From a virus (Duplodnaviria > Caudoviricetes): DNA of 34,948 bases. The stretch is taken from the IMG/VR virus record IMGVR_UViG_3300017716_002237, positions 1-34,948 of that record; one strand, given 5' to 3'. Both the position numbers and the translations under genes were made by a program. Positions 1-34,948 of this stretch are shown piece after piece. The notes beneath the pieces were generated by a model. The model saw nothing but the letters and a program-made list of their open reading frames with translations, did no database searches and was not told the DNA's origin. How positions within the stretch are numbered: the stretch's first letter is position 1; every line of letters begins with the position of its first letter.

Positions 1-123
1 AAAGAAAGGAAAAGTTGGAAAACCTAGAATTATAGGTTCTCCAGACGACTTATGGGCACTATTTATACAGTATAAACAATGGGTTATAGATAATCCATTT
101 TATATACAAGACTATGTAGGTGG
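1..123. repeat. Terminal direct repeat, left copy (identical to 34826..34948)
   Basis: The first 123 nt (aaagaaaggaaaagttgg...ctatgtaggtgg) recur at the contig end. The duplication lies inside the terS ORF, as expected for a circular assembly overlap. Confidence 0.97.
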
Positions 124-2508: not shown

Positions 2509-3109
2509 GGTAATGTTTTCCGACTTAGGTCAAAGCCTGACCATTGTCGAAGATGGAGGTTCCTTAGAAGATGCAGTGTACCAGCTCTGTGTTAGGCTCT
2601 CAGACGCTATCAAGTCTAACCTGACTGAGCAAAACGCTTACTATTCAAGCTCTCAGTTGCTGCAGTCAATAGCTGTAACACCTCCAGATAGCGCAAGAGG
2701 CATTGTTAACGTAACAATTGAGGGTGCTGATTACGCTTTCTTTATGGATTCAGGTGTTGACGGCATGAAGGTTAGACACAACTCAGAGTACAGCTTTAAG
2801 TACAAGTTTGCGTCTAAGAAAATGGTAGCACCCATAAGCAAGTGGATTACAAGACGAGGAATAAAGCTGCACACAACTACCAAGACTAGCAAAGCTAGCT
2901 CAAGGACAGGCAAGCTTCGTGACGTGTCTAAGGCTAGAACGTCATTGGCATGGGCGATAGCAACGGCAGTAAAGAGAGATGGTATTGAGCCTACTCACTT
3001 TATATCTGACGCTTTACAGGAGACCACATTGATTAACTTTTCGCAGGCTCTAGCTAATTGGCTTGGCGAAAAGATAGAAGTTAGATTAGCAAGCAACGTA
3101 ATGAATTAA
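2480..3109 (+). CDS. Virion morphogenesis / tail completion protein (HK97 gp10-like, tentative)
   Basis: 209-aa basic ORF with YAFFMDSG and AIATAVKRDGIEPTHFI, in a structural gene context. Confidence 0.5.
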   Translation: MNRISQSEFEVMFSDLGQSLTIVEDGGSLEDAVYQLCVRLSDAIKSNLTEQNAYYSSSQLLQSIAVTPPDSARGIVNVTIEGADYAFFMDSGVDGMKVRHNSEYSFKYKFASKKMVAPISKWITRRGIKLHTTTKTSKASSRTGKLRDVSKARTSLAWAIATAVKRDGIEPTHFISDALQETTLINFSQALANWLGEKIEVRLASNVMN

Positions 3110-3125
3110 CGAGGGCATATACACA

Positions 3126-4307
3126 ATGGCGATAACAATCACAAATTCACCAAACGACTACCAGAACATGTTTAACGGGATGAAGTTAAGCGTGAGCAGT
3201 ACAAACACAGGGCAACCGAACTTTATGTTCTTGTTCGACGTTTTCATAGTAGGTACAGCAAGCGCTGTAGCTAGGCTGACTTACCCTAAGCAGCCAGCCG
3301 TAACTTCAGTAAGCGCAGATATAGCCTCTGTATTGAGGGGTTACGCAACACCTTCATTCAGTGCTATAACAGCACTTGAAGACGACACAACAAGAAGCGT
3401 GGTTCAGTACTACGTTCAAATTGGGGAGATATACGACGTTGCTACTGTGCCTACCACATTCGGAAACCTCGCTCAATTCGGTACGGCAGTAGCTCATAAG
3501 CATGCTTCATACGCAGTGTTTGACTTCCTTGAATGGAGCAAGGTTGCATTCACTAACATGGCTTCAGCTAGCGGTTCACCTAAACACCTGAACCAGAAGC
3601 TAGCTAAGACCTACATAAGATATGGGCAAGAAGCTATCTTAAGTGTTTACGAGCCAGCGTTAGTAGCCAACTCGATACTTGTTACTGTGTTTGGTCATGA
3701 TGGACTAGTCATAGACCAAGGAGCCAACTTTGTATCAGCAACAAACGCTATCAGGCACCACAACGTAGGTACTAGTCTTTTGTCTAGTCTAGGTTTTGAT
3801 GCTTACATGCAAGATGAGTCAACAGCCTACTATAGGGTCAGGTTGCTTGAAGGTGCTAATGTGTTGGCAGAAAACCTATACTACATAGATGCTTGTCAGG
3901 ACTTGTACGGAACGCAACAATTGCAGTGGTTTTCGAGTCTTGGTTCGTGGGATTCATTCAACTTCTCGCTGGCTAACACAATTAGCTCTCAAATCGAGAG
4001 AAGCCAATTCAAAAAGCGGTTTGACCTAAGAGGTAGCGTACTCCAAAGGTTGAAAACAACCTACTCGACAACCGAAGTAAGGCAGGTAAAGATAACCAGC
4101 CCTGTATTGAACGACGACGAATGGAAAGCCCTTAGAGAGTTGTTGTTAAGCCCACTAGTGTACGTTCACGACCCTTCCCATGGATACGTTCCAGTCAACT
4201 TGATTGAATCAAACTACGATGAACACAAGTGGCTCAATGGTAGAAACCCTAAAGCAATGGAGATAACCTTTGAGTACACGTTCAACAACTACAGACAAAC
4301 GCTATAA
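3126..4307 (+). CDS. Structural tail protein (hypothetical)
   Basis: 393-aa beta-rich ORF (MAITITNSP..., WFSSLGSWDSFNF) abutting the next large tail gene. Confidence 0.6.
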   Translation: MAITITNSPNDYQNMFNGMKLSVSSTNTGQPNFMFLFDVFIVGTASAVARLTYPKQPAVTSVSADIASVLRGYATPSFSAITALEDDTTRSVVQYYVQIGEIYDVATVPTTFGNLAQFGTAVAHKHASYAVFDFLEWSKVAFTNMASASGSPKHLNQKLAKTYIRYGQEAILSVYEPALVANSILVTVFGHDGLVIDQGANFVSATNAIRHHNVGTSLLSSLGFDAYMQDESTAYYRVRLLEGANVLAENLYYIDACQDLYGTQQLQWFSSLGSWDSFNFSLANTISSQIERSQFKKRFDLRGSVLQRLKTTYSTTEVRQVKITSPVLNDDEWKALRELLLSPLVYVHDPSHGYVPVNLIESNYDEHKWLNGRNPKAMEITFEYTFNNYRQTL

Positions 4308-10380: not shown

Positions 10381-11352
10381 ATGGCGTACAACGTTGCTGC
10401 TCTCGCAGCCTACACTAAAACCAACGAGCGTGACTTAATTGCCAAAGCTCTGTTTCAAGCCAAGTCAATCAGCTTGGCCACCAAAATGCCTGATGTTAAA
10501 AGCACTGCGCAAGTTAACAAGATGGACACAGATGCTGTGTTTCAAGTTGACTCTTGCGGATTCAATAGCTCAGGTACTACCACTTTTACCAACAGGGTAA
10601 TTACTGTTGGAGCTATAAAAGTTAATGAGGCTCTTTGCCCTAAAACTTTGGAGACAAAGTATTTGCAGTTGGCTTTGCCTGCTGGTTCTAACTACGAAAG
10701 TGTTCCTTTCGAGCAACAATACACCGACCTAAAGGCTGGTATAATTGCTGAGCATTTAGAAACCGCTTTCTGGCAAGGTGACACTGGTTCTGGCAACGCA
10801 AACTTGAACAAGTTTGATGGTCTTATAAAGCTTATTGACGCTGCTTCTGATGAGATTGAGGCTAACGTAGCAATCTACATGGTTGGAGCGCCTATTACGG
10901 CAGCAACTGGCATCACTGCCAGCAACGCTATCGCAATTTTCCAAGGTATTTATAAGGCAATTCCAACATCGTTGTTGAAGAAGGCAGACCTTAAAGTATT
11001 CTGCGGTGTTGACGTGTTCAGGACTTATATCCTAGCATTGACCAACGCAAATTTGTTCCATTATACCACTGATGCCTCTGCTGGCACGTTCGAGATTATG
11101 ATTCCAGGAACTAATCTTACTATCGTTGCGGTAGACGGATTGAACGGAACAAATCGTATCTTTGCGTTGCAGACCTCAAATATGTTCTTTGGTACTGACA
11201 TGATGGCCGAAATTGGCGCTGATGGCGCTGATGTTAAGTTTGAAATGTTCTTCGCTAAAGAAGCAAACGAGGTTCGTTACCAAGCAGCTTTCAAGGCAGG
11301 TTCGCAGGTTGGAATCACTAACGAGATTGTTAAATTTACACTAGTGCCTTAG
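10381..11352 (+). CDS. Major capsid protein
   Basis: 323 aa, follows the protease and scaffold. Motifs KVNEALCPKTL, AFWQGD and FDGLIK resemble Bacteroidota phage HK97-fold capsids. Confidence 0.8.
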   Translation: MAYNVAALAAYTKTNERDLIAKALFQAKSISLATKMPDVKSTAQVNKMDTDAVFQVDSCGFNSSGTTTFTNRVITVGAIKVNEALCPKTLETKYLQLALPAGSNYESVPFEQQYTDLKAGIIAEHLETAFWQGDTGSGNANLNKFDGLIKLIDAASDEIEANVAIYMVGAPITAATGITASNAIAIFQGIYKAIPTSLLKKADLKVFCGVDVFRTYILALTNANLFHYTTDASAGTFEIMIPGTNLTIVAVDGLNGTNRIFALQTSNMFFGTDMMAEIGADGADVKFEMFFAKEANEVRYQAAFKAGSQVGITNEIVKFTLVP

Positions 11353-24690: not shown

Positions 24691-24925
24691 GGTTTCGCCA
24701 AGCAAAATTTACACAACACCTAAAGGGGCTAAGGTTAAGCTTACAGGTGTTTGCGTAAAGGATACTAGGTGGTATGGAACAATCCAGAACATAGAAACCA
24801 AAGCCTTTGTAGAGATGCCTTTAGGTGTCATTGACAACTCTCTTGTAGAAACAACAGAGGTTGTCGACCACGAAATTAGTCACAGAGATTATAAACAAAC
24901 TAAAAAACCAAACACAAAACAATGA
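24683..24925 (+). CDS. Hypothetical protein
   Basis: 80-aa ORF overlapping both neighbours. Confidence 0.6.
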   Translation: MREVSPSKIYTTPKGAKVKLTGVCVKDTRWYGTIQNIETKAFVEMPLGVIDNSLVETTEVVDHEISHRDYKQTKKPNTKQ

Positions 24926-25218
24926 ACATTTTAGAAAGAGCTAATGGTATCGTCAACCTAAATGACGAAGAGCATGTAAGGAAGTATGGCAACTTTATCG
25001 CAAACATGGAGAGGTGCGCTAGAATAGCATCAGAAATGAGCGACAAGGAGATTACCACTGAAGACGCTTACAACGTAATAATAGCTGTCAAGTTATCTAG
25101 ACAATCAGTCAACGACAAGGAGGATAACCTGCTGGATGCTGTAGCATACATGGGTTCGCTTAACAACTACCTAGAAAGAGACAGAGTAAAGCTTAGAAAG
25201 GGTCACGCTAATGTTTAA
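24922..25218 (+). CDS. DUF6378-like all-alpha protein (nucleotide-metabolism associated)
   Basis: Motifs ILERA, YG, N..R.A.I.S, VKLSR and DNLLDAVAY. Confidence 0.7.
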   Translation: MNILERANGIVNLNDEEHVRKYGNFIANMERCARIASEMSDKEITTEDAYNVIIAVKLSRQSVNDKEDNLLDAVAYMGSLNNYLERDRVKLRKGHANV

Positions 25219-25903
25219 CAACAAGGTTATACAATACCTTAATTCGCCATACTTGCTGCTAGCAAACCCTAAGTTTAACGACTTTTTCGAGCTTACAGAC
25301 AAGGAAGCTGAAGAGCTGAAAGAATTGAGGCCGCTCATTCAATACCATATGAGGTATGCAATGCTTGGGGAAGCACCTTACGAATTGCTTAGAGAGGGTT
25401 TGGATGCTTACTTTAGGGTTTACCTTTACAAAATATGGTTTCACCTTGGATATTACGGATTGCAAAACAAGGTGTTGCTAGATTATTGCGGCGGCAAAGG
25501 TTCTTATGCCAAGCAATTTGAGGCTGACAATCCACTTAGTACAGCAATAGTGCTAGACAGAGAAGGGGATATATCAGTTGACTTTGAGGCGAAACCAGAC
25601 TGGTATAAGGGTACGCTTCATGAAGGCGTGTACGACTTTGTTCTTCTAAGCGAAATACTTCATTGCAAAAACTTAGAATGGCAAGAGTACCTAATATTTT
25701 CCAGCCATGAAGTCTGCAAGCAAGGCGGAACGCTTATTATAGTAGAAAACGAGGATATCTTTATGGCTGAAAGGCTTGAAGAGTTAAAAGGAACAAAACT
25801 TGTTTCATCTAGAGATATACTCAGGCTTACAGAAGGTTTATTTCAATTAAAAAAATCATTTAAAATCAACGACCACACAATTTATGAATTTAAGAAAATC
25901 TAA
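25211..25903 (+). CDS. Class I SAM-dependent methyltransferase (small-molecule type)
   Basis: Motif I VLLDYCGGKG, post-I IVLD, motif II YDFVLLSEILH and motif III QGGTLIIVE. No DPPY/NPPY or PCQ DNA-methyltransferase motif. Confidence 0.85.
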   Translation: MFNNKVIQYLNSPYLLLANPKFNDFFELTDKEAEELKELRPLIQYHMRYAMLGEAPYELLREGLDAYFRVYLYKIWFHLGYYGLQNKVLLDYCGGKGSYAKQFEADNPLSTAIVLDREGDISVDFEAKPDWYKGTLHEGVYDFVLLSEILHCKNLEWQEYLIFSSHEVCKQGGTLIIVENEDIFMAERLEELKGTKLVSSRDILRLTEGLFQLKKSFKINDHTIYEFKKI

Positions 25904-26909
25904 CAGCAGCAATGGAAGAGTTACTTCTTTCAAGACTTACGCAGAAGCAGAAAGCTTCTTCGTTCACGAGATTTGCCACAATCCAGATTATGTAAACCAC
26001 GACACCAGCGAAATGGTTGGAGTTGGCTTTACACTAACAAATCCATTAGCCAACAAGAACAAGCATAGCAACTACGAGTATGCGCAAGCTTTCTTTGACT
26101 GGTTGATATCTGGTAAAGGAGAGTTAAGCTCTGAAGTACTCAGGCTCAATCCTTGGGCTCAAAGATTCATTGACACAAGCGGCCTTCCTGAAGGTTTTTC
26201 TGGCAGCTACGGAATCAAGCTTGCTGGACAGCTAGATGTTGCTGTCAACGAGTTGAAGGTTCAGAAGGAAGGCAGGCGTAGTTATGTATCTATCTTGTGG
26301 CCAAGCGACCAGATTATACTAACAAGCAAGACAACCCACGAGTATCCATGTACTGTTGGTTTCAGTTTCTTTGTTCGTAACGGAGCGCTGGACATGGTTG
26401 TTAACATGAGGTCTAACAATTGCTTAAATGTTCTGCCCTATGACGTATATAACTTCACGTCACTTCAAAAGATGGTTGCTTTCAGGCTTGGTGTTGACAT
26501 TGGTTATTACACACACTTTGCTAACTCGCTACATGTTTTCAAGAGTGACGTTCGTAGCGTTCTAGAAGGTGGTTACGAGTGGCAGCACGAAACAACCAAG
26601 CTACTATCCAACGAGTTCGAGCCAATCAGAAAGTGGGCTGACAAGGTAGGTATTCTAGCTCAATGCACCTCACACGCTCAGATTGTGAAGCTAGGAGAGG
26701 AGTCAGGCGAATTGTGTAGGCACGTTCTCAGAAACAACAAACAAGGGTACACAGATGCGTTAGGAGACATTCTTATAGTTATGGTGAACTTAGCAGCTAG
26801 CTTAGGAATTTCACTTGAACAAGCGCTTAATTTGGCTTGGCAAGAGGTTCACTCTAGAGAAGGCAAGATAAAGAACGGAACGTTTATTAAGCAAGGGGAT
26901 AACAGTTAG
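25884..26909 (+). CDS. Thymidylate-synthase-fold (dCMP-type) enzyme fused to a C-terminal MazG-like pyrophosphatase
   Basis: TS fold: W..SG, SYG, GRR, YPCT, MRSNN, LPYD and SLHVF. MazG domain (about 26600-26909): W...GI, QIVKLGEESGEL, DALGD and REGKIKNGTFIK. Confidence 0.85.
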   Translation: MNLRKSNSSNGRVTSFKTYAEAESFFVHEICHNPDYVNHDTSEMVGVGFTLTNPLANKNKHSNYEYAQAFFDWLISGKGELSSEVLRLNPWAQRFIDTSGLPEGFSGSYGIKLAGQLDVAVNELKVQKEGRRSYVSILWPSDQIILTSKTTHEYPCTVGFSFFVRNGALDMVVNMRSNNCLNVLPYDVYNFTSLQKMVAFRLGVDIGYYTHFANSLHVFKSDVRSVLEGGYEWQHETTKLLSNEFEPIRKWADKVGILAQCTSHAQIVKLGEESGELCRHVLRNNKQGYTDALGDILIVMVNLAASLGISLEQALNLAWQEVHSREGKIKNGTFIKQGDNS

Positions 26910-26911
26910 TT

Positions 26912-27436
26912 ATGGCAACAAGTTCAGACAGATACTTTATGGAGCGTGCTATGGTAGCGCGCTCCTTTAGCCCTTGCAACCGCCGAAAGGTTGGTGCTGT
27001 CATTACTGTTAATGGCCTGTTTGTTACAAGCAAAACATTCAACCACGTGGAGGGTAAAAGGTACGAGGCTTGCGAGTGCAACGGCAAGTCAAAGCCTAAC
27101 GTTGCTCATGCTGAAGCTTTGGCCTGCAAGGAGTTGAAAGAAAAACATGGTTACAACACAACAACGCTCAAGTACTCTTTATACGTAACAATGCTTCCTT
27201 GCCAACAATGTGCTGAGAAGATTGTTGACGCTGGTATCAAGGAAGTTTTTTGGTGGCAACAACATGGTAGAAAAGGGGTTGTTGAGTACTTGCTAAGCAA
27301 GGGTATATACGTAGAGCGTATAGAAATTCCGTACCTTGAACCTAATGATGTCAAGGCAGATGAAAACCTGTGGAAATTTTTACTAGGCAAATTCGGTAAC
27401 TTGGTATATATTTGCAGAGGTTTGTTTGTCAGCTAA
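26912..27436 (+). CDS. dCMP deaminase (ComEB/CDA family)
   Basis: Motifs SPCNRRKVGAVI, HAE, LYVTMLPCQQCA and AGIKEV. Confidence 0.9.
   Translation: MATSSDRYFMERAMVARSFSPCNRRKVGAVITVNGLFVTSKTFNHVEGKRYEACECNGKSKPNVAHAEALACKELKEKHGYNTTTLKYSLYVTMLPCQQCAEKIVDAGIKEVFWWQQHGRKGVVEYLLSKGIYVERIEIPYLEPNDVKADENLWKFLLGKFGNLVYICRGLFVS
27407..27414 (+). promoter_or_regulatory. Bacteroidota -7 promoter element upstream of the replication operon
   Basis: Exact TAnnTTTG match (TATATTTG) followed by a structured leader. Confidence 0.5.
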
Positions 27437-34783: not shown

Positions 34784-34948
34784 AAGCGTTCCAGTAACGC
34801 TTGAAATTTCTACAGAAACCCCTGTAAAGAAAGGAAAAGTTGGAAAACCTAGAATTATAGGTTCTCCAGACGACTTATGGGCACTATTTATACAGTATAA
34901 ACAATGGGTTATAGATAATCCATTTTATATACAAGACTATGTAGGTGG
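34635..34948 (+). CDS. terS: Terminase small subunit, 5' part (wraps to 451; about 213 aa if this ATG is used)
   Basis: ATG 34635 follows AGGAGG at 34621. The frame is open to the contig end and continues in frame through the terminal repeat. Confidence 0.7.
   Translation, partial: MAKVVKKTLDKTSKETKPLLNPAPKTEQTPQMVEENQNSLSENNEVLAIESVPVTLEISTETPVKKGKVGKPRIIGSPDDLWALFIQYKQWVIDNPFYIQDYVG
34826..34948. repeat. Terminal direct repeat, right copy (identical to 1..123)
   Basis: Direct sequence identity with the window start. Confidence 0.97.

What the first reader, a model, noticed from the sequence alone, without database searches (positions are those of the whole stretch)
24922..27436. Four-gene nucleotide cluster: candidate folate-independent, SAM-dependent route dCTP -> dCMP -> 5m-dCMP -> dTMP, or a new cytosine modification
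Seen: four tightly coupled genes encode a DUF6378-like protein, a small-molecule class I SAM methyltransferase, a TS-fold enzyme fused to MazG, and a dCMP deaminase. I recognise no DHFR, ThyX, nucleotide kinase or DNA polymerase in this complete genome. Established: MazG enzymes convert dNTP to dNMP. TS-fold enzymes activate pyrimidine C5 by Cys attack at C6, the same activation DNA C5-methyltransferases use with SAM. dCMP deaminases can convert 5-methyl-dCMP to dTMP. Inference: MazG supplies dCMP, the TS-fold subunit activates it, the adjacent MTase supplies the methyl group from SAM instead of methylene-THF, and the deaminase yields dTMP. That would be a thymidylate pathway distinct from ThyA and ThyX. 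Alternatively the product is a modified C or U that enters phage DNA or acts against host defence.
Basis: partly seen in the sequence, partly recalled or inferred. Interest (0 to 1): 0.9.

Follow-up and report, generated by a model that had tools for sequence, protein, structure and literature searches.

The report
Phage route to 5-methoxy DNA base
An uncultured phage pairs a thymidylate-synthase look-alike carrying the residue signature of known cytosine hydroxylases with an O-methyltransferase-like enzyme and a deaminase, so it likely makes a 5-methoxy pyrimidine nucleotide, probably 5-methoxyuracil standing in for thymine, a DNA base our literature searches did not find reported.

Summary
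The four coupled genes are real, but the TS-fold enzyme was misread. It has Asn at ThyA position 169 and Asp at 177. It groups with RB69 gp48 and Thanatos (98/94), which are flavin/O2 5-hydroxy-dCMP synthases (PMC13326640).

The methyltransferase folds like His-base phenolic O-methyltransferases and sits beside a D169N enzyme in 11 of 11 loci. Likely route: dCMP → 5-hydroxy-dCMP → 5-methoxy nucleotide (about 0.72).

The end product is open. Four of five complete carrier genomes still purge cytosine-containing restriction sites, unlike five known or inferred cytosine-modifying controls. The deaminase is linked in 7 of 9 loci. I favour 5-methoxy-dUMP replacing thymidine (0.40) over 5-methoxy-dC (0.28). 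No activity was measured. The scan earlier proposed 5-methoxycytosine on other DNA (e1-10235014); the uracil branch did not appear in those notes.

The parts
24922..25218 (+). DUF6378 protein, 98 aa, four or five helices, function unknown; a common companion of dCMP-specific TS-fold genes and MazG in phages
   Evidence: Pfam; 657 relatives; 63 of 80 DUF6378 viral loci hold a TS-fold gene, all 63 N177D/D169; fold searches gave no clear match
25211..25903 (+). Class I SAM methyltransferase of the Methyltransf_2 O-methyltransferase type, acidic (pI 5.25); predicted 5-hydroxy-pyrimidine nucleotide O-methyltransferase; putative base His151 at 25661-25663
   Evidence: Profile hits are mostly O-MTases; model pLDDT 93; best fold MfnG Z 20.2, rmsd 4.0, 211 aligned; His151 in 80 of 82, Glu148 81 of 82, Arg188 81 of 82; pI
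25884..26579 (+). TS-fold domain, predicted flavin/O2-dependent dCMP 5-hydroxylase: Cys156 (26349-26351) = ThyA C146, Asn179 (26418-26420) = D169N, Asp187 (26442-26444) = N177D, EYPC motif as in RB69 gp48
   Evidence: signature from PMC13326640
26580..26909 (+). MazG-like NTP pyrophosphatase domain fused in frame to the TS-fold domain (boundary approximate); acidic metal motif kept; substrate (dCTP or dTTP) unknown
   Evidence: Pfam MazG and phrog_715/1992; sequence beside the L001 MazG
26912..27436 (+). Zinc deaminase of the dCMP deaminase family, HxE and PCxxC intact; inferred to deaminate the 5-substituted dCMP, or plain dCMP
   Evidence: best solved relative 4P9C, E 7.3e-11

Best explanation
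The cassette likely makes a 5-methoxy pyrimidine deoxynucleotide without folate: the TS-fold domain is predicted to hydroxylate dCMP at C5 using flavin and O2, the neighbouring methyltransferase is predicted to cap that hydroxyl with a SAM methyl, and the deaminase would give 5-methoxy-dUMP, which would enter phage DNA in place of some or all thymidine. Shown here: gene order and linkage, the hydroxylase residue signature and tree position, the O-methyltransferase fold and conserved His, and persistent avoidance of cytosine-containing restriction sites. Taken from the literature on relatives: hydroxylation chemistry and flavin use. Inferred: O-methylation of the 5-hydroxyl, action on the mononucleotide (the MTase is acidic), the order of methylation and deamination, the MazG substrate, phosphorylation by host kinases in this phage (by a phage kinase in L012-L015), and incorporation into DNA. 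Odds: about 0.72 for the hydroxylase + O-methyltransferase core, about 0.40 for the whole route ending in 5-methoxy-dU.
For: Hydroxylase: N179/D187/C156 align to ThyA D169/N177/C146. All 28 relatives share N169/D177. The best solved relative, 9IQU (E 3e-28), shows the same residues as RB69 gp48 over the aligned stretch. The window protein falls in a 98/94 clade of 31 of 41 rows, all with N169, together with RB69 gp48 and Thanatos. PMC13326640 reports that every D169N homologue it tested made 5hodC. Methyltransferase: O-MTase hits by profile and fold; next to a D169N enzyme in 11 of 11 loci, four of them (L012-L015) found by the MTase alone; a different MTase (Methyltransf_24) lies two genes from the D169N enzyme of L002. 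Uracil branch: deaminase in the cassette in 7 of 9 loci with room, against 10 of 63 ordinary DUF6378-TS loci (loci not independent). Strongly avoided palindromes are 7/74, 1/83, 9/88, 6/84 and 9/83 in the five complete carriers, against 0/72, 1/82, 0/87, 0/78 and 2/75 in cytosine-modifying controls (p 0.017, 5 vs 5) and 3-22 of about 80 in five controls taken as unmodified. G002-G004 avoid GC-only sites although they carry their own polymerase, kinase and NTP pyrophosphatase. The window cassette itself has 0 of 9.3 expected GATC/CCGG/CCWGG/GGWCC sites. No second TS-fold gene and no ThyX in 5 of 5 complete carriers, while RB69 and G006 keep a canonical ThyA.
Against: No activity was measured, and D169N is an empirical marker. 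The window protein is only 32% identical to RB69 gp48. The MTase fold group also holds N- and C-methyltransferases (PhzM, BchU, SibL, Fur6), and the window protein is under the Pfam cut-off. For the uracil branch: deaminases also flank cytosine-modifying TS genes (Xp12, L003, L026, L008, L046) and are absent from the L021 and L022 cassettes. The homologous DUF6378-TS-MazG cassette is dCMP-directed in 63 of 63 cases. G001 shows almost no avoidance (1/83). Relief of avoidance at T-containing sites is weak: pooled 2/95 vs 11/76 (p 0.003), but p 0.07 for GC-matched G002-G004 alone. The window lacks GATC entirely, and M6, a true thymine-replacing phage, still avoids T-containing sites (12/20). Site avoidance cannot tell thymine replacement from unmodified or partly modified DNA. 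Three of the five cytosine-modified control labels are inferred from genes.
Confidence: 0.4

Rival explanations
1. Same first two steps, but 5-methoxy-dCMP is phosphorylated and replaces part of the cytosine in phage DNA, as a folate-free mimic of 5-methylcytosine. MazG is a dCTPase and the deaminase only turns surplus dCMP into dUMP for host ThyA, as in T4.
For: The cassette is homologous to DUF6378-TS-MazG cassettes that are dCMP-directed in 63 of 63 loci. All characterised 5-hydroxy-dCMP synthases feed cytosine positions (PMC13326640). Deaminases flank C-modifying genes. L021 and L022 lack the deaminase. G001 hardly avoids sites. This phage has no polymerase or kinase, so partial substitution would leave restriction pressure. 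An earlier scan note reached this reading on other DNA (e1-10235014, unchecked).
Against: G002-G004 have full replacement machinery and have long held the cassette (MTases 41-60% identical), yet avoid 4-6 of 8 GC-only 6-bp sites, where Xp12 avoids 0 of 8. The deaminase is more tightly linked than in ordinary cassettes (7/9 vs 10/63).
Confidence: 0.28
2. The TS domain makes 5-hydroxy-dCMP, but the methyltransferase acts elsewhere (N4 or N3 of the base, the sugar, or 5-hydroxycytosine already in DNA), or the product is a free nucleotide used against host defence or metabolism and never enters DNA.
For: The fold group includes N- and C-MTases. Carrier genomes cannot be told from unmodified phages by site avoidance (p 0.55). 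The window has no kinase or polymerase.
Against: The conserved His and nearest solved relatives suit a phenol-like hydroxyl. The acidic family (70 of 82 with pI under 7) suits a nucleotide rather than DNA. L012-L015 place a dNMP-kinase fusion in the cassette, which points to a dNTP.
Confidence: 0.17
3. The TS domain is an ordinary folate-dependent dCMP methylase or hydroxymethylase that happens to carry Asn169, and the MTase methylates the hydroxymethyl group or is incidental.
For: N177D and an acidic residue three before the Cys also mark hydroxymethylases; MilA is the next solved relative after 9IQU/9IQC (E 3.5e-13).
Against: T4 gp42, Xp12 and all 63 DUF6378-linked enzymes keep Asp169. The tree puts the window with the hydroxylases. 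No DHFR gene was found. Linkage in 11 of 11 loci is not incidental.
Confidence: 0.09
4. One reading: the TS domain only activates C5, the MTase delivers a SAM methyl to carbon, and deamination of 5-methyl-dCMP gives dTMP.
For: Tight MTase-TS-deaminase linkage; no ThyA or ThyX in 5 of 5 complete carriers; genomes look unmodified by site avoidance; the fold group holds C-MTases.
Against: The same TS substitutions work as stand-alone hydroxylases in phages lacking the MTase. SAM bound in a separate Rossmann-fold enzyme would have to reach a covalent adduct buried in the TS cleft (inference).
Confidence: 0.03

Closest known systems
Flavin/O2-dependent 5-hydroxy-dCMP synthases and glycosyl-5-hydroxycytosine pathway (RB69 gp48, DLP3 gp80, Thanatos, RL38JI; PMC13326640, sections 24, 25, 28, 29 read; HY126 work of He et al. 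2026 seen only as cited there)
   Same: TS fold, catalytic Cys, D169N, N177D, EYPC motif, same clade; a second enzyme caps the 5-hydroxyl; an NTP pyrophosphatase accompanies it
   Different: The cap is predicted to be a methyl, not a sugar. No glycosyltransferase or sugar genes were found. The genomes are small, lack ThyA and still avoid cytosine-containing sites. MazG is fused.
Xp12-type dCMP methylase module (TS homologue, dCMP deaminase, DHFR) and the DUF6378-TS-MazG cassettes
   Same: A dCMP-directed TS homologue beside a deaminase and/or MazG and DUF6378; deamination of the C5-modified nucleotide as a source of a T-position nucleotide (recalled for Xp12, not read here)
   Different: These keep Asp169 and use folate; Xp12 avoids no GC-rich sites; here a hydroxylase plus SAM enzyme takes the slot
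5-methoxyuridine in tRNA made by TrmR from 5-hydroxyuridine (PMC6158493, abstract read)
   Same: SAM-dependent O-methylation of a 5-hydroxy pyrimidine
   Different: That is an RNA wobble base modified in the polymer; per PMC13326640 the known RNA hydroxylation routes use no TS homologue; TrmR did not appear among the shown profile or fold hits
Methyltransf_2 small-molecule O-methyltransferases (MfnG, ASMT, Plu4895, MmcR)
   Same: Fold (Z 18-20), motif I, His after strand 4
   Different: Only 14-19% identity; shorter N-terminal part; own phage family of about 80-160 clusters with conserved Arg and Tyr residues

Membership tests
5-hydroxy-dCMP synthase (RB69 gp48 type) | TS fold with catalytic Cys146 equivalent | tested here: met
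   Cys156
5-hydroxy-dCMP synthase (RB69 gp48 type) | D169N diagnostic residue | tested here: met
   Asn179; definition in PMC13326640
5-hydroxy-dCMP synthase (RB69 gp48 type) | N177D (dCMP specificity) | tested here: met
   Asp187
5-hydroxy-dCMP synthase (RB69 gp48 type) | Acidic residue at position 143 | tested here: met
   Glu153 three before the Cys, EYPC as in RB69; the automatic column was shifted by a gap, so this was read from the motif
5-hydroxy-dCMP synthase (RB69 gp48 type) | One clade with verified members | tested here: met
   98/94 clade with RB69 gp48 and Thanatos, one tree search, 41 rows; monophyly not formally tested
5-hydroxy-dCMP synthase (RB69 gp48 type) | FMN binding and O2-dependent hydroxylation | not testable with these tools
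   Needs the enzyme; flavin-contact residues not available (He et al. not held)
ThyA thymidylate synthase | Asn177, Asp169, His147 | tested here: not met
   Asp, Asn, Thr at these places
Folate-dependent dCMP methylase / hydroxymethylase (Xp12, T4 gp42) | Asp169 kept together with N177D | tested here: not met
   Window is ND; T4, Xp12 and 63 of 63 DUF6378-linked enzymes are DD
Glycosyl-5-hydroxycytosine system | Glycosyltransferase and sugar-nucleotide genes; own polymerase and kinase | tested here: not met
   None among 52 scanned ORFs or by phmmer for polymerase and kinase; divergent genes could be missed
Methyltransf_2 O-methyltransferases | Class I Rossmann fold with motif I and acidic motif II | tested here: met
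   D91, G95, G97, D116 in 80-82 of 82; fold
Methyltransf_2 O-methyltransferases | His after strand 4 (general base; role recalled) | tested here: met
   His151 in 80 of 82; aligns to the His of 3MCZ and MfnG in the profile alignments
Methyltransf_2 O-methyltransferases | Pfam PF00891 cut-off and dimerisation domain | tested here: inconclusive
   Window protein 17.2 bits against 22.3; several longer family members pass; PF08100 only in the distant tail
Methyltransf_2 O-methyltransferases | Methyl transfer to oxygen | not testable with these tools
   The fold group holds O-, N- and C-MTases
dCMP deaminase family | HxE and PCxxC zinc motifs | tested here: met
   H66, E68, P96, C97, C100 invariant in 9 rows
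dCMP deaminase family | Substrate is dCMP; tolerance of C5 substituents | not testable with these tools
   PMC12697855 (passages) shows family members acting on dCTP, so the label does not fix the substrate
All-alpha NTP pyrophosphatase (for DUF6378) | MazG-like fold | tested here: inconclusive
   No Foldseek match at E 0.001; best Z 7.0 to unrelated helices

The most novel reading that the evidence does not exclude
These phages replace thymine with 5-methoxyuracil, made from dCMP by flavin/O2 hydroxylation, SAM O-methylation and deamination: a new DNA base and a T-position nucleotide supplied without folate, ThyA or ThyX, shared by at least two distant phage groups.
Probability: 0.38. Interest if true: 0.9.

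Novelty: new variant of a known kind. Interest (0 to 1): 0.74.

Why it matters
5-Hydroxycytosine nucleotides are so far described as handles for sugars. A methyl cap would add 5-methoxy-C or 5-methoxy-U to the bases of natural DNA; searches of the open-access library found no such report (subscription papers, He et al. 2026 among them, were not readable, and one supplement was only term-searched). If the uracil branch holds, phages would fill the T position without folate, which bears on antifolate-independent replication and on evasion of T-reading nucleases. The three small enzymes can be tested at once with the published E. coli plasmid LC-MS assay. The restriction-site signature also offers a cheap way to ask, for any uncultured phage, whether its cytosines are really shielded.

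Tried and rejected
SAM-to-carbon thymidylate route: rejected, see rivals. Single-protein locus search with the fused TS found nothing; alignments did. The genome-contig scan gave one 25-residue match (L043) that the family profile did not recognise, so no prophage or host was identified. No MTase homologue was found in 50,697 GenBank phages, so no cultured carrier is at hand. The putative major capsid protein (window 10381-11352) also had no match there. DUF6378 as a MazG-like pyrophosphatase: the fold searches gave no support and no exclusion, and the Atlas gave only DUF6378 clusters. The idea that ThyA or ThyX normally fills this slot beside DUF6378 failed for TS-fold genes, which were dCMP-type in 63 of 63; ThyX was not searched in those 80 loci. 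MTase-TS identity correlation r 0.95 over 10 loci mostly reflects two clades and is not used as proof of co-evolution. The supplement of PMC13326640 held none of five search terms, so I cannot say whether one of its tested metagenomic enzymes belongs to this MTase-linked group. No complex prediction was run, since binding would not separate the readings. No TS structure was predicted.
Full report
Observation. The window is a 34.9-kb phage record classed as complete, with terminase, portal, primase-helicase and recombinase genes. The four genes are present and coupled: DUF6378 (24922-25218), methyltransferase (25211-25903), TS-fold + MazG fusion (25884-26909) and deaminase (26912-27436). No ThyX, second TS, DHFR, kinase or polymerase was found.

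The TS-fold enzyme. Its best solved relatives are 9IQU and 9IQC (E 3e-28), far above MilA (E 3.5e-13) and ThyA. The 9IQU stretch shown matches RB69 gp48 as aligned; that it is HY126 AfhB I take from earlier scan notes. Its best hits among 50,697 phages are RB69-like, Marfa and Thanatos proteins. PMC13326640 (abstract, introduction and sections 24, 25, 28, 29 read) shows that RB69 gp48 and DLP3 gp80 make 5-hydroxy-dCMP with oxygen from O2, that RB69 gp48 carries FMN, and that D169N marks the activity in every homologue it tested. Aligned to E. coli ThyA, T4 gp42 and RB69 gp48, the window protein has Cys156 (C146), Asn179 (D169N) and Asp187 (N177D) and the EYPC motif. All 28 relatives share N169/D177. 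In a 41-row tree the window sits in a 98/94 clade of 31 rows with RB69 gp48 and Thanatos, apart from the D169 enzymes. The enzyme is therefore most likely a dCMP 5-hydroxylase; this is inferred from signature and tree, not assayed.

The methyltransferase. A profile search of 1.84 billion representatives gave 162 hits, 79 at 1e-10 or better; sampled members of the distant tail are ordinary Methyltransf_2 O-methyltransferases. A profile of 82 members finds O-methyltransferases first in the PDB. The model (pLDDT 93) matches MfnG (Z 20.2), 3MCZ, Plu4895, MmcR and ASMT best, but N- and C-methyltransferases of the same group follow closely. His151, Glu148, Arg188 and motif I are nearly invariant. 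The family is acidic (70 of 82 with pI under 7), which suits a mononucleotide substrate. A 5-hydroxy pyrimidine is a phenol-like acceptor, and the same chemistry is known in tRNA (PMC6158493, abstract).

Linkage. Eleven distinct loci hold this MTase (the window, L001, L012-L015, L019-L023), and in all 11 a D169N TS-fold gene is adjacent or one small ORF away. L012-L015 were found by the MTase alone and form a second, GC-rich phage group with an NTP pyrophosphatase-dNMP kinase fusion in the cassette and their own polymerase A. The reverse does not hold: D169N enzymes of RB69, Marfa, Thanatos, L003 and L024 lack it, and L002 has a Methyltransf_24 enzyme instead. DUF6378 is widespread: of 80 viral loci, 63 hold a TS-fold gene, all of the dCMP-directed D169 type, 45 hold MazG, 10 a deaminase, and none this MTase. 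The window cassette thus looks like that common cassette with hydroxylase + methyltransferase in place of the folate enzyme.

Which base? If cytosines were shielded, cytosine-containing restriction sites should not be purged. The window has GATC 0/64, CCGG 0/15, CCWGG 1/56 and GGWCC 0/29, and the cassette itself 0 of 9.3 expected such sites. Counting palindromic 4-6-bp sites with at least 8 expected and under a fifth observed, the five complete carriers give 7/74, 1/83, 9/88, 6/84 and 9/83. Five cytosine-modifying controls (Xp12 43 of 64 kb, RB69 60 of 168 kb, G006 80 of 123 kb and two Manatee Spring records; the last three labelled from their genes, Xp12's label recalled) give 0/72, 1/82, 0/87, 0/78 and 2/75. 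Five phages taken from recall as unmodified give 14/81, 8/77, 5/84, 22/79 and 3/80, and M6 (thymine-replacing, recalled) gives 17/72. Carriers differ from the cytosine-modified set (p 0.017) and not from the unmodified set (p 0.55). Among 6-bp sites they avoid T-free ones as often as unmodified phages (14/24 vs 14/33) and two-T ones less (2/95 vs 11/76), but that relief is weak in the GC-matched subset (p 0.07) and absent in M6. The deaminase is in the cassette in 7 of 9 loci with room, against 10 of 63 ordinary cassettes, and none of the five complete carriers has ThyA or ThyX, whereas RB69 and G006 keep ThyA. Together these favour deamination to 5-methoxy-dUMP and use at T positions. Against it: deaminases also flank cytosine-modifying genes, L021 and L022 lack one, G001 barely avoids sites, G002-G004 are kin, and partial cytosine substitution would give the same signature in a phage without its own polymerase.

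Mechanism and odds. MazG and host pools supply dCMP (inferred). The TS domain makes 5-hydroxy-dCMP (about 0.85, from relatives). The MTase O-methylates it or its deaminated form (core about 0.72). The deaminase yields 5-methoxy-dUMP for DNA (0.40 overall), or 5-methoxy-dCMP enters DNA at C positions (0.28).

Novelty. The hydroxylase is a new member of a family described in 2025-2026. The methyl cap and its MTase family were not found in searches; 'methoxy' and 'methyltransferase' do not occur in the main text of PMC13326640. He et al. 2026 could not be read, and Mahler et al. 2025 was seen only as a citation. An earlier scan note proposed 5-methoxycytosine for a related block on other DNA; the word methoxyuracil occurred in no note. 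Verdict: new variant of a known kind, interest 0.74.

Noticed in passing
window, whole genome: Near-total absence of GATC, CCGG, CCNGG and GGNCC and strong depletion of CGCG and ACSGT, pointing to a host with several type II restriction systems.
   Followed up: yes
L078-L157 (80 DUF6378 viral loci): DUF6378 marks a very common phage cassette with dCMP-directed TS homologues (63 of 63 N177D; both methylase-like and hydroxymethylase-like types) and MazG; DUF6378 has no clear fold match.
   Followed up: partly
L002 6388-8569 (G005): A D169N TS-fold gene lies between a dNMP kinase and a Methyltransf_24 methyltransferase: possibly a second, independent recruitment of a methyl cap for 5-hydroxy-dCMP.
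   Followed up: partly
G001 2829-3893 (- strand); L003 7640-8710; L024 1-654: U32 peptidase-like genes accompany D169N enzymes; G001 holds both the MTase cassette and a U32 gene very like that of glycosylating L003 (E 2e-140), and is the carrier with least site avoidance.
   Followed up: no
L012 5258-6622, L013-L015 likewise: Fusion of an NTP pyrophosphohydrolase (phrog_671) with a dNMP kinase (phrog_761) at the head of the cassette, with a divergent deaminase at its end.
   Followed up: partly
L020 912-1609: The TS-fold gene appears split by a frameshift near its 3' end; an assembly error or decay.
   Followed up: no
window 1-123 and 34826-34948; G004 ends: Both records have end repeats of exactly 123 bases, so the repeat is likely an assembly overlap of a circular contig rather than a biological terminal repeat.
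   Followed up: partly
L160 39541-42211 (MW202455): Two TS-like genes plus ThyX, an NTP pyrophosphatase, a kinase and an unannotated deaminase-like ORF in one 44-kb myovirus record, with little site avoidance; likely another cytosine modification.
   Followed up: no
L003, L046, Xp12, M6: A shared dinucleotide bias (TA low, TC high; CC low in L003 and L046) that the MTase-carrying phages lack.
   Followed up: no
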